This document shows positions 63,569 through 63,735 of a DNA stretch of 64,000 nt, one piece after another. The position numbers were made by a program, and so were the translations under genes. Location: NCBI GenBank assembly GCA_934168365.1, contig CAKPNJ010000006.1, forward strand, positions 937-64,936. The letters run 5' to 3'. This DNA is from an uncultured Clostridia bacterium (lineage in GTDB: Bacteria > Bacillota > Clostridia > TANB77 > CAG-508). The notes beneath the pieces were generated by a model. The model did not search any database, was not told the DNA's origin, and saw nothing but the letters and a program-made list of their open reading frames with translations. How positions within the stretch are numbered: the stretch's first letter is position 1; each line of letters begins with the position of its first letter.

Positions 63569-63647
63569 AACTCAAATCCTCCTTTATATATTTTATTTCT
63601 TTTATTCTAAAATATACAAAGATTTCTAGATGAGTTTGGGTGCCAAT

Positions 63648-63724
63648 GGTGCAAATGGGGACGGGGTCAAAAAGCACCTTTTTTTGAAAGAAGGGTGCTT
63701 TTTGACCCCGTCCCCATTTGCACC
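63648..63724. repeat. GC-rich perfect palindrome, 31-nt arms, 15-nt spacer
   Basis: GGTGCAAATGGGGACGGGGTCAAAAAGCACC (63648..63678) is the exact reverse complement of 63694..63724; flanked by extra GTGCC/GGCAC pairing. Confidence 0.9.
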
Positions 63725-63735
63725 CGAAGGCACTC

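What the first reader, a model, noticed from the sequence alone, without database searches (positions are those of the whole stretch)
63632..63735. 31-bp perfect GC-rich palindrome in a very AT-rich genome, with a related copy upstream of spoIIIAA
GGTGCAAATGGGGACGGGGTCAAAAAGCACC, a 15-nt spacer, then its exact reverse complement, with further GTGCC/GGCAC pairing outside. It lies just after the holA stop but has no U-run, so it is not a standard terminator. The core GTGCCAwTGGGGACGGrG / CCGTCCCCAwTkGCAC recurs as a smaller hairpin at 56178..56206, between the yebC terminator and spoIIIAA. The composition and length suggest a dispersed repeat: REP/BIME-like, a hairpin recognised by an HUH/IS200-type transposase, or a structured RNA.
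Basis: seen in the sequence. Interest (0 to 1): 0.5.

Follow-up and report, generated by a model that had tools for sequence, protein, structure and literature searches.

The report
REP-like hairpin doublet in gut Clostridium
The palindrome is real: it is an inverted pair of a small hairpin repeat that is scattered through gut Clostridia and flanks a REP-type (RAYT-like) tyrosine transposase gene in relatives, a known kind of element barely described outside Proteobacteria.

Summary
Window 63648-63678 and 63694-63724 are exact 31-nt inverted arms around a 15-nt spacer. A related 29-nt hairpin lies at 56178-56206.

Both belong to a dispersed hairpin family. The unit has a 6-10 bp stem that differs between lineages and covaries, and a conserved loop, T-GGGGACGG-NNC-TT. 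Units occur singly, in tandem, or as inverted doublets, always in (+,-) order.

Strains of the same species carry, at the holA-tspO site, a doublet, either arm alone, or a decayed copy. More distant relatives have only an ordinary terminator there.

In relatives, units flank a ~250-aa Y1 HUH gene in the same (+ ... -) polarity. That gene is closest in sequence and fold to E. coli RAYT (4ER8). Ten human-gut contigs carry this gene flanked by a 29-mer identical to the window's second copy. The window itself has no such gene.

Best reading: a REPIN-like doublet of a REP-like family whose cognate enzyme is a RAYT/TIRYT-type transposase. Mobilisation by that enzyme is inferred, not shown. The canonical 5' GTAG tag is absent; the conserved block is the loop.

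Novelty: a new member of a known kind. Interest is moderate.

The parts
63648..63678 (+). Arm 1 of the inverted doublet (GGTGCAAATGGGGACGGGGTCAAAAAGCACC). The G-rich loop motif GGGGACGG is on the + strand at 63657-63664.
   Evidence: It has a weak hairpin of its own, GGTGC/GCACC.
63679..63693 (.). 15-nt A/T-rich spacer between the arms (TTTTTTTGAAAGAAG). It differs between strains.
63694..63724 (-). Arm 2, the exact reverse complement of arm 1. GGGGACGG is on the - strand at 63708-63715. This is the arm in gene-sense orientation, directly after holA.
63639..63647 (+). GGTGCCAAT, a 9-nt tandem duplicate of the start of arm 1. It keeps the ancestral C where both arms now have A:T. Its GTGCC pairs with GGCAC at 63729-63733.
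   Evidence: Compared with strains L350, L352 and L353, which lack the duplication; fold.
63725..63735 (.). CGAAGGCACTC: the linker between the doublet and the holA stop. It contains GGCAC (63729-63733), which closes the outer 5-bp helix.
56176..56208 (-). Single unit of the same family: ATGTGCCA-TTGGGGACGGAGAATTT-TGGCACAT (8-bp stem, 17-nt loop). It is in gene-sense orientation, between the yebC terminator and the spoIIIAA ribosome-binding site.
   Evidence: The identical 29-mer flanks a RAYT-like gene in L325, L327, L328 and L330-L336. The related species CAG:567 has a doublet at this site.
63736..64000 (-). 3' end of holA (DNA polymerase III delta), cut by the window edge. Its stop codon lies 11 nt from the doublet.
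   Evidence: Pfam DNA_pol3_delta on the orthologous gene in L124; ORF.
63110..63568 (-). TspO/MBR-family membrane protein gene, downstream of the doublet. It was used to fetch orthologous loci.
56210..56253 (.). AT-rich palindrome followed by a T-run: the ordinary yebC terminator, next to the single unit. It is not part of the repeat family.
   Evidence: I3; conserved in CAG:567.

Best explanation
The 31-bp palindrome is an inverted doublet (REPIN-like) of a short hairpin repeat. The hairpin at 56176-56208 is a single unit of the same family.

The unit is a 27-35 nt stem-loop. Its stem differs between lineages but stays complementary. Its loop carries a conserved block, (T)GGGGACGG-NNC-TT. The family is spread through low-GC gut Clostridium-like genomes and is also seen in Lachnospiraceae, Bacteroidales and Collinsella.

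Its cognate gene is a ~230-270-aa Y1 HUH protein of the RAYT/TIRYT type. That gene is bracketed by an upstream (+) unit and a downstream (-) unit, the same polarity as every doublet.

Inferred mechanism, by analogy with IS200/IS605 TnpA and E. coli TnpA_REP:
- The hairpin extrudes on single-stranded DNA, probably the lagging-strand template, which carries the G-rich loop.
- The enzyme reads the loop plus a generic stem, then nicks and rejoins. This seeds new units and doublets.
- Doublets later decay to singlets by deletion between the short direct repeats that the palindromic stem halves create.

Shown here: family membership, the covarying hairpin, presence/absence and doublet/singlet polymorphism at orthologous sites, and the physical association and polarity match with the RAYT-like gene.

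Inferred, not shown: catalysis by that protein, activity on the ssDNA strand, and any effect on holA or tspO transcripts.
For: FAMILY
The hits in low-GC Clostridium MAGs are true copies with the same anatomy.
- Hairpins with the same loop occur in Butyrivibrio, Acetatifactor, Bacteroidales and Collinsella loci.

HAIRPIN
- 30 units from different lineages align almost without gaps (A2).
- The stem columns are 81.1% paired against 50.6% when shuffled. The covariation score is 0.70 against 0.19 (0 of 500 shuffles reach it), and the slid controls give 0.10-0.23. All 8 pairs show two-sided changes.

DYNAMICS AT ORTHOLOGOUS SITES
- holA-tspO site: the window and several strains have a doublet; L345 has only the inverted arm; L124-127 have only the forward arm; L343, L344 and L346 have a decayed doublet. 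Relatives at about 83% nt identity have no unit, only a normal terminator.
- The window's two arms carry a matched C:G to A:T change relative to L350/L352/L353 and remain perfectly complementary.
- ruvC-holA site: none in L124, a single unit in L133, a doublet in L130-132.
- yebC-spoIIIAA site: a single unit in the window, a doublet in CAG:567.

COGNATE GENE
- The L104 ORF scores 37.4 bits on Pfam Y1_Tnp (cut-off 23). Its best NCBIfam match is REP-associated tyrosine transposase at 66.2 bits, against 16.7 for the IS200 model.
- The only real PDB sequence hit is 4ER8. An AF2 model (pLDDT 79.8) has 4ER8 as its best fold match (E = 1.1e-6), ahead of the ISDra2 and IS608 TnpA structures.
- The gene is flanked by inverted units in L104, L137-139 and L140-142; in L134-136 only two tandem upstream units were detected.
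- Among 80 metagenome loci, a strict detector finds 53 with an upstream unit, 48 with a downstream unit, and 44 with both. Ten of the loci it missed were inspected by eye, and each has flanking units with variant loops or imperfect or long-looped stems.
- L325, L327, L328 and L330-336 have the window's exact 29-mer on both sides of the gene.

POLARITY AND ORIENTATION
- Adjacent pairs number 22 (+,-), 11 tandem and 0 (-,+). This matches the gene's flanks, + upstream and - downstream.
- Between co-directional genes, 22 units are in sense orientation and 6 antisense.
Against: - No RAYT-like gene lies in the 64-kb window. The link to the window's own genome rests on an identical 29-mer in unlinked gut-metagenome contigs.
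- The holA-tspO arms are atypical members: a 5-bp stem, a 21-nt loop, and the variant GGGGACGGGGTC, which was seen only at this orthologous site among 355 loci. They may be old and no longer mobile.
- The canonical 5' GT[AG]G tag of REPs is absent.
- The NCBIfam RAYT score is below its curated cut-off (66 against 80).
- The genome-wide copy number could not be measured. The window shows only 2 sites in 64 kb.
- No experiment or read-level evidence of transposition is available.
- Part of the covariation set was chosen with a stem-based detector. Gene orientation and replication direction are confounded.
Confidence: 0.8

Rival explanations
1. The hairpins are mainly RNA elements, such as 3'-UTR stabilisers, terminators or processing sites. 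They are selected for their effect on transcripts, and the link to the transposase gene is incidental.
For: Single units usually sit within a few nt of a stop codon in sense orientation. The covarying stem would also be expected for an RNA. Relatives without the unit at holA-tspO have a normal terminator there instead, so the doublet may have taken over that role.
Against: There is no U-tract and no terminator call. No Rfam family matches, even sub-threshold, other than generic long-hairpin models. Doublets present both orientations. Units occur in-frame inside tilS. Strains of one species differ in which arm they keep. The units bracket a Y1 HUH gene with fixed polarity.
Confidence: 0.1
2. 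The units are immobile relics or fixed binding sites of a domesticated Y1 protein. This is as proposed for Group 1 RAYTs, which are thought to be co-opted and unable to duplicate. The variation seen would be only local duplication and deletion, not transposition.
For: In 26 loci the gene sits in a conserved slot downstream of dnaB, with tilS also seen downstream in 24 of them. All variants at holA-tspO can be derived from one ancestral doublet by deletion, point changes and a 9-nt duplication. Bertels and Rainey describe Group 1 as single-copy and co-opted (10.1101/2021.07.10.451892).
Against: Units appear at sites that are empty in close relatives. ruvC-holA is a 21-nt spacer in L124 but carries a precise 31-nt hairpin in L133. 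The holA-tspO site is empty in L130-133. Near-identical units lie at unrelated sites within one genome: L104 and L113, and the window site compared with the L325 flanks.
Confidence: 0.12
3. The element is a MITE left by a DDE-type insertion sequence, with the 31-nt arms as terminal inverted repeats.
For: It has two inverted arms around a short non-coding spacer, and spacer length varies between doublets from 1 to 250 nt.
Against: No target-site duplication is visible at the insertion boundaries. A single arm is itself a self-contained hairpin and occurs alone. The only gene consistently bracketed by units is a Y1 HUH gene, not a DDE transposase.
Confidence: 0.03
4. It is a one-off chance hairpin, or a quasi-palindrome made perfect by template switching, with no family behind it.
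For: The exact arm variant GGGGACGGGGTC is found only at this orthologous site. The matched change in both arms is what template-switch correction of a quasi-palindrome would produce.
Against: The arms share the family's loop block and GTGCCAA-type stem. The site carries recognisable family units in other strains. The second window copy is an exact family member. Template switching may well explain how the arms stay perfect, but not where the unit came from.
Confidence: 0.02

Closest known systems
REP / REPIN-RAYT systems of Proteobacteria (E. coli REP/BIME with TnpA_REP, PDB 4ER8; Pseudomonas REPINs)
   Same: Short dispersed hairpins lie mostly just downstream of genes. Inverted doublets fold into a long hairpin. 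Singlets are derivable from doublets. Intragenic in-frame copies exist. The cognate Y1 HUH gene is bracketed by the repeats, and its best sequence and fold match is 4ER8.
   Different: There is no conserved GT[AG]G at the 5' foot. Here the conserved block is in a large 11-17 nt loop and the stem varies. The protein is longer, with a helical C-terminal domain that looks like an HTH. The hosts are Firmicutes and other gut phyla. The NCBIfam RAYT score is below its cut-off.
TIRYT/TIRtron (Di Nocera et al. 2013, PMC3733652) = TnpA_Y1 subclass 2.1 (Quentin et al. 2018, PMC6006769) = Group 1 RAYT (Bertels et al. 2017, PMC5581495)
   Same: It is a RAYT-like gene with an NH[AV]H motif, about 240 aa, with a C-terminal HTH-type tail. 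It is flanked by inverted repeats that carry a G-rich motif (published consensus GGGGWSAS; here GGGGACGG, with some copies GGGGACAG or GGGGTCGG). The repeat families are moderately abundant and occur as singles, dimers and clusters. Group 1 is reported to occur in Clostridia.
   Different: The published consensus has A at position 7; most copies here have G. The Y motif here is YIHNNP, not YIELNP or Y[IV]HLNP. Quentin et al. found no REP-like secondary structure next to subclass 2.1 genes, whereas here each flank is a covarying hairpin. No Firmicute family is catalogued in those papers.
IS200/IS605 insertion sequences (IS608, ISDra2)
   Same: The catalytic fold is the same Y1 HUH fold. Subterminal DNA hairpins are recognised on ssDNA. 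The strand and orientation bias is expected for lagging-strand-template targeting (the mechanism comes from the cited literature).
   Different: The gene is not multi-copy and identical. The two flanks are the same hairpin inverted, rather than distinct left and right ends. The IS200 model scores only 16.7 bits against a cut-off of 55. The short units far outnumber the gene.
Rickettsia RPE and other CGTC-tagged palindromes
   Same: In-frame insertion of palindromic repeats into essential genes. The reverse strand of the loop contains CGTC.
   Different: CGTC REPs have 8-9 bp stems, 4-5 nt loops and a terminal unpaired CGTC, and no associated transposase. Here CGTC lies inside a large loop and a transposase gene is associated.

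Membership tests
REP/REPIN-RAYT system | Short (20-40 nt) palindromic unit repeated at many, mostly extragenic, sites of a genome | tested here: met
   Units are 27-35 nt. The window has 2 sites (3 units) in 64 kb. The 8-kb locus L104 has 4 units, and L054 and L013 have several. The whole-genome count could not be made.
REP/REPIN-RAYT system | Unit forms a hairpin (structure conserved, not just sequence) | tested here: met
   81% of cells are paired against 51% when shuffled. Covariation is 0.70 against 0.19 (0 of 500 shuffles). All 8 stem pairs show compensatory changes.
REP/REPIN-RAYT system | Conserved GT[AG]G tetranucleotide at the 5' foot of the hairpin | tested here: not met
   The columns 5' of the stem in alignment A2 are variable. 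The only invariant block is GGG.C.G inside the loop.
REP/REPIN-RAYT system | Inverted doublets (REPINs) that fold into one long hairpin | tested here: met
   Window 63640-63733. There are 22 (+,-) doublets in other loci and none in (-,+) order.
REP/REPIN-RAYT system | Cognate RAYT gene flanked by the same repeats | tested here: met
   Inverted flanks in L104, L137-142 and most of the 80 metagenome loci; L134-136 have upstream units only. L325-type loci carry the window's exact 29-mer. The gene is not present inside the window.
REP/REPIN-RAYT system | RAYT signature protein (HUH, Y...NP, RAYT-type fold) | tested here: met
   The invariant motifs are NHxHxL and YIHxNPxKA. Pfam Y1_Tnp scores above its cut-off. 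4ER8 is the best sequence and fold hit. NCBIfam REP_Tyr_transpos is the best hit but below its cut-off, 66.2 against 80.
REP/REPIN-RAYT system | RAYT cleaves or mobilises the repeats on ssDNA | not testable with these tools
   This needs biochemistry or population sequencing.
TIRYT / TnpA_Y1 subclass 2.1 | Flanking inverted repeats carrying GGGGWSAS | tested here: inconclusive
   GGGGACGG matches 7 of 8 positions. The variants GGGGACAG, GGGGTCGG, GGGCCGG and GGTTCCGG occur in other lineages.
TIRYT / TnpA_Y1 subclass 2.1 | C-terminal HTH-type extension (Bac_DnaA_C, HTH_23 or HTH_28) | tested here: inconclusive
   The AF2 model shows a confident helical domain at residues 203-266. Pfam gives only sub-threshold hits to other HTH families, and none of the three named families was found.
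TIRYT / TnpA_Y1 subclass 2.1 | Y motif YIELNP or Y[IV]HLNP | tested here: not met
   The family has YIH[ND]NP. This is closer to the motifs quoted for subclasses 2.4 and 2.6.
IS200/IS605 insertion sequence | IS200-type TnpA, multi-copy, with distinct left and right subterminal hairpins | tested here: not met
   The IS200 model scores 16.7 bits against a cut-off of 55. The flanks are the same unit inverted. The gene is syntenic in 26 loci.
Intrinsic terminator | G+C-rich stem with a 3-8 nt loop followed by a U-run | tested here: not met
   No site was found in 63400-64000 on either strand.
MITE of a DDE transposon | Terminal inverted repeats bounded by a target-site duplication | tested here: not met
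   Filled and empty sites were compared by eye. No direct repeat flanks the inserted segment.
Known RNA family (Rfam 15) | Match at gathering score | tested here: not met
   Searches gave none. One search gave only generic miRNA-precursor hairpin models below threshold.

The most novel reading that the evidence does not exclude
This would be the first documented REPIN-type repeat population in Firmicutes, shared in kind with Bacteroidales and Collinsella of the gut. It would be served by a RAYT clade that reads a conserved hairpin loop rather than a 5' GTAG guide. That clade resembles the Group 1 / subclass 2.1 RAYTs, which the literature describes as co-opted, repeat-poor and lacking REP-like structures.

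The gene's anchoring downstream of dnaB, with its downstream repeats translated in-frame inside the essential gene tilS, would point to long-term vertical coexistence with the host. So would the matched changes that keep doublet arms perfect within a species.
Probability: 0.4. Interest if true: 0.6.

Novelty: new member of a known kind. Interest (0 to 1): 0.5.

Why it matters
REP/REPIN-RAYT systems are studied almost only in Proteobacteria. The largest RAYT group (Group 1 / subclass 2.1) is regarded as having no hairpin repeats.

A clear, polymorphic, covarying hairpin family tied to such a gene in abundant human-gut Clostridia would give a tractable case for three questions: how these enzymes recognise DNA (loop against guide tetranucleotide), whether they still move repeats, and how repeats shape intergenic regions and even coding sequence (tilS).

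There are practical consequences too. The repeats break metagenome assemblies: most contigs carrying the gene are 1-4 kb. They also create spurious small ORFs.

Tried and rejected
- Rfam at gathering score on the window and on 13 loci, and at E <= 10 on the element. Result: no family, only generic long-hairpin miRNA models.
- BLAST of the 103-nt element against plasmids and phages. Result: chance fragments only.
- Exact-sequence search of the literature. Result: no papers.
- Loop-only pattern in viral contigs. Of 120 hits, 110 had no stem, so this is not a phage element.
- Exact look-up of the window's TspO and rubrerythrin proteins. One was not on record and the other gave only a 628-nt contig. 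I worked around this through homologues.
- Cluster names for the RAYT homologues. None carried an organism name.
- CGTC-tagged REP idea. Rejected: those have 4-5 nt loops, a terminal tag and no transposase.
- DNA-uptake-sequence idea, because Neisseria DUS also form inverted pairs. Rejected: the stem covaries and the loop is asymmetric.
- Terminator scan. Result: none.
- tblastn and an HMM search for a RAYT gene in the window. Result: none.
- The crude stop-to-stop ORF caller mislabelled some units as intragenic, for example the window's 56176-56208 unit. Only the sense/antisense counts between co-directional genes are used.

Full report
**1.

Window 63648-63678 reads GGTGCAAATGGGGACGGGGTCAAAAAGCACC. 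A 15-nt spacer follows, and 63694-63724 is its exact reverse complement. Outside the arms, GTGCC (63640-63644) pairs with GGCAC (63729-63733).

As single-stranded DNA, the 116-nt region folds at -46.2 kcal/mol, against -13.8 +/- 2.4 for shuffles (z = -13.7). GGGGACGG occurs three times in a window of about 27% G+C, where 0.03 is expected.

The third occurrence is the hairpin at 56176-56208. On the - strand it reads ATGTGCCA-TTGGGGACGGAGAATTT-TGGCACAT.

The doublet lies between the holA stop (63736-63738, - strand) and a TspO/MBR gene (63110-63568, - strand). The single unit lies between the yebC terminator and the spoIIIAA ribosome-binding site. No terminator-like site is called at the doublet. 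No Rfam family matches.

**2. It is a family, and the unit is a hairpin with a conserved loop**

I scanned one genome per species with GTGCMAWTGGGGACGG. It returned chance hits in high-GC genomes, but also true copies in low-GC "uncultured Clostridium" MAGs and in Clostridium sp. CAG:567.

Reading these loci shows a common anatomy:
- a 6-10 bp stem;
- a loop of the form (T)GGGGACGG-NNC-TT(T);
- the complementary stem.

The stem differs between genomes: GTGCCAA/TTGGCAC, GTGCAA/TTGCAC, GTGTCCA/TGGACA, TGATTTT/AAAATCA, CTGCCAA/TTGGCAG, TGTCAGTT/AACTGACA. The loop block stays the same. The same design appears in Butyrivibrio, Acetatifactor, Bacteroidales and Collinsella loci.

Thirty units from different lineages align almost without gaps (A2). 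Over the eight stem pairs:
- 81.1% of cells pair, against 50.6% after shuffling;
- the covariation score is 0.70 against 0.19 (0 of 500 shuffles reach it);
- the slid registers give 0.10-0.23;
- every pair shows two-sided changes.

One caveat applies. About a third of these sequences came from a stem-based detector. The rest were taken by position next to the transposase gene plus the loop core only.

**3. The sites are polymorphic among relatives**

I fetched orthologous loci through TspO homologues. By nucleotide identity to the window, L118 is 99%, L124 is 95%, L130 is about 83%, and CAG:567 is 80-88%.

holA-tspO site, read on the gene-sense strand:
- L350, L352 and L353 carry the canonical doublet: GGTGCCAATGGGGACGGGGTCAAAAAGCACC, 14 nt, GGTGCTTTTTGACCCCGTCCCCATTGGCACC.
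- The window carries the same doublet with a matched C:G to A:T change in both arms, so the arms remain perfect.
- L345 keeps only the inverted arm.
- L124-127 keep only the forward arm.
- L343, L344 and L346 have a heavily decayed doublet.
- L130-133 have no unit, only an ordinary terminator.

L345 is exactly what a deletion between the two GGTGC stem halves of the doublet would leave.

ruvC-holA site: L124 has a 21-nt spacer. L133 has a precise 31-nt hairpin inserted between the ruvC stop and the holA ribosome-binding site. L130-132 have a doublet.

yebC-spoIIIAA site: the window and its own species have one unit. CAG:567 has a doublet that is 60 nt longer.

No target-site duplication is visible at any of these boundaries.

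**4. The cognate gene**

In L104, two inverted units (761-789 on +, 1852-1880 on -) bracket a 267-aa ORF. The evidence on that ORF is:
- Pfam Y1_Tnp at 37.4 bits, cut-off 23.
- NCBIfam best match "REP-associated tyrosine transposase" at 66.2 bits, below its cut-off of 80. The IS200 model scores 16.7.
- The only meaningful PDB sequence hit is E. coli TnpA_REP, 4ER8.
- An AlphaFold model (pLDDT 79.8) has 4ER8 as its top fold match (E = 1.1e-6), followed by the ISDra2 and IS608 transposases.

Homologues form a coherent family of about 250 aa. The invariant motifs are NHxHxL, GYVxRxRYK and YIHxNPxKA, with a helical C-terminal domain ending in ISYRxMExxLxISRExLR. A profile search finds 1,068 cluster representatives at E <= 1e-30.

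In three further lineages the gene sits between dnaB and tilS. Units directly follow the dnaB stop, and in L137-139 and L140-142 inverted units also lie inside tilS; in L134-136 none was detected downstream.

I then examined 80 metagenome loci encoding relatives:
- A strict detector finds 53 with an upstream (+) unit, 48 with a downstream (-) unit, and 44 with both.
- Ten of the loci it missed were inspected by eye. Each has flanking units that the detector could not score. Most carry variant loops (GGTTCCGG, GGGGTCGG, GGGCCGG, GGGCCAGCC); L321 has the standard loop core in a longer loop, and L340 an imperfect stem.
- 24 loci keep the full dnaB-gene-tilS arrangement and two more have dnaB upstream. 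The others lie in different contexts.

Ten human-gut contigs (L325, L327, L328, L330-L336) carry the gene flanked by GTGCCATTGGGGACGGAGAATTTTGGCAC. This is identical over 29 of 29 nt to the window's unit at 56178-56206.

The window itself has no such gene.

**5. Polarity**

Among adjacent unit pairs within 300 nt, 22 are (+,-), 11 are tandem, and none is (-,+). The gene's flanks have the same polarity, (+) upstream and (-) downstream. A doublet therefore looks like the gene's two flanks with the gene removed.

Between co-directional genes, 22 units have the G-rich loop on the sense strand and 6 on the antisense strand. Most of those 6 are second arms of doublets. In the window, genes and G-excess are both on the - strand. 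That strand would be the lagging-strand template, and the single unit has its G-rich loop there.

This is the bias known for ssDNA transposition by IS608 and ISDra2 (established knowledge, summarised in PMC6006769). Here, however, it is confounded with gene orientation.

**6. Most likely mechanism**

The following steps are inferred, not shown:
- The unit extrudes as a hairpin on transiently single-stranded DNA.
- The RAYT-like enzyme recognises the loop block plus a generic stem. It nicks and rejoins through its HUH/Tyr centre.
- This spreads units or doublets. Doublets decay to singlets by slippage between stem halves.
- Perfect arms are kept by template-switch or gene-conversion-like correction, or by selection.

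The following are shown: the family, the hairpin, the polymorphisms, and the association and polarity match with the gene. Effects on holA or tspO transcripts are possible but untested.

**7. What is known**

- REP/REPIN-RAYT systems are described mainly in Proteobacteria.
- Di Nocera et al. 2013 (PMC3733652) list no Firmicute family. They do describe "TIRYT" genes flanked by inverted repeats that share GGGGWSAS, with moderately abundant repeat families.
- Quentin et al. 2018 (PMC6006769) equate these genes with TnpA_Y1 subclass 2.1: NHVH, about 238 aa, C-terminal HTH. They report that no REP-like structure was found next to such genes.
- Bertels et al. 2017 (PMC5581495) note that Group 1 RAYTs occur in Clostridia and have flanking 16-mers at about 12 copies.
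- Bertels and Rainey regard Group 1 as co-opted and non-duplicating.

The present family fits this kind. It differs in three details: G rather than A at motif position 7, a YIHNNP Y motif, and flanks that are clearly covarying hairpins. I found no paper describing it.

**8. Rival readings**

- A purely RNA role. This is weakened by the lack of a U-tract, both orientations occurring, in-frame copies in tilS, strain-to-strain arm choice, and the gene association.
- Immobile relics of a domesticated enzyme. This remains possible for the atypical holA-tspO arms, whose GGGGACGGGGTC variant occurs only at that orthologous site. But units do appear at sites that are empty in close relatives.
- A DDE-type MITE. 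There is no target duplication and no such transposase.
- A one-off hairpin. This is refuted.

**9. Limits**

The window gives 2 sites per 64 kb.
- The link between the window's genome and a RAYT gene rests on an identical 29-mer in unlinked contigs.
- Many metagenome loci are redundant strains of a few species.
- Nothing here shows catalysis or movement.

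Noticed in passing
L134 2922-3992, L140 3777-4823, L272 3764-4801, L265 about 3768-4772, L104 about 1-964 (- strand): The tilS gene next to the RAYT-like gene carries 1-3 in-frame, unit-derived repeats encoding CQ(K/E)GP(S/T)P(V/M)A, between the PP-loop SGGPDS and AHVNH. The copy number differs between lineages. The ORF stays open, so the transposase's downstream flank is translated as part of an essential protein.
   Followed up: partly
L134-L142, and 26 of the loci L263-L342: The RAYT-like gene occupies a conserved slot, rplI-dnaB-[gene]-tilS-ftsH, across homologues only 54-62% identical to the L104 protein. 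This suggests long vertical inheritance. Another clade, including the one with the window's unit, sits elsewhere; in L325 it follows mfd, a toxin-antitoxin-like pair and a SpoU methyltransferase.
   Followed up: partly
window 63639-63656 and 63716-63724: Relative to other strains, both arms of the doublet carry a matched change (C:G to A:T at arm position 6). A 9-nt tandem duplicate retains the old base. This looks like a footprint of arm-to-arm correction or template switching.
   Followed up: partly
L315 and L316 (contig OLNZ01000220.1): Two copies of the RAYT-like gene lie about 7.6 kb apart on one contig, each flanked by TGCCAAAAGGGACGGGGAATTTTGGCA-type units.
   Followed up: no
L017 565-1157: OLE RNA (RF01071, 348 bits) lies in a Clostridium MAG locus that also holds units. 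It is unrelated to the finding.
   Followed up: no
L104 1890-2339 and 2362-3225: dnaB appears split into two ORFs just upstream of the RAYT-like gene in this MAG. This could be a frameshift, an assembly error or something else.
   Followed up: no
L155, L165, L168, L238, L248, L250 (IMG/VR contigs): A family of related viral contigs shares a hairpin, CTTCTT-GGGGACGGTTC-..-AAGAAG, with the same loop block, embedded in a conserved sequence that may be coding.
   Followed up: no
homologue table: Most contigs that carry the RAYT-like gene are only 1-4 kb long. This is consistent with the flanking repeats breaking short-read metagenome assemblies.
   Followed up: no
window 56029-56220 (+) and 63626-63757 / 63630-63965: The units create spurious small ORFs, with peptides such as CQNSPSPMAH and GANGDGVKKH, that gene callers could annotate as hypothetical proteins.
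   Followed up: no
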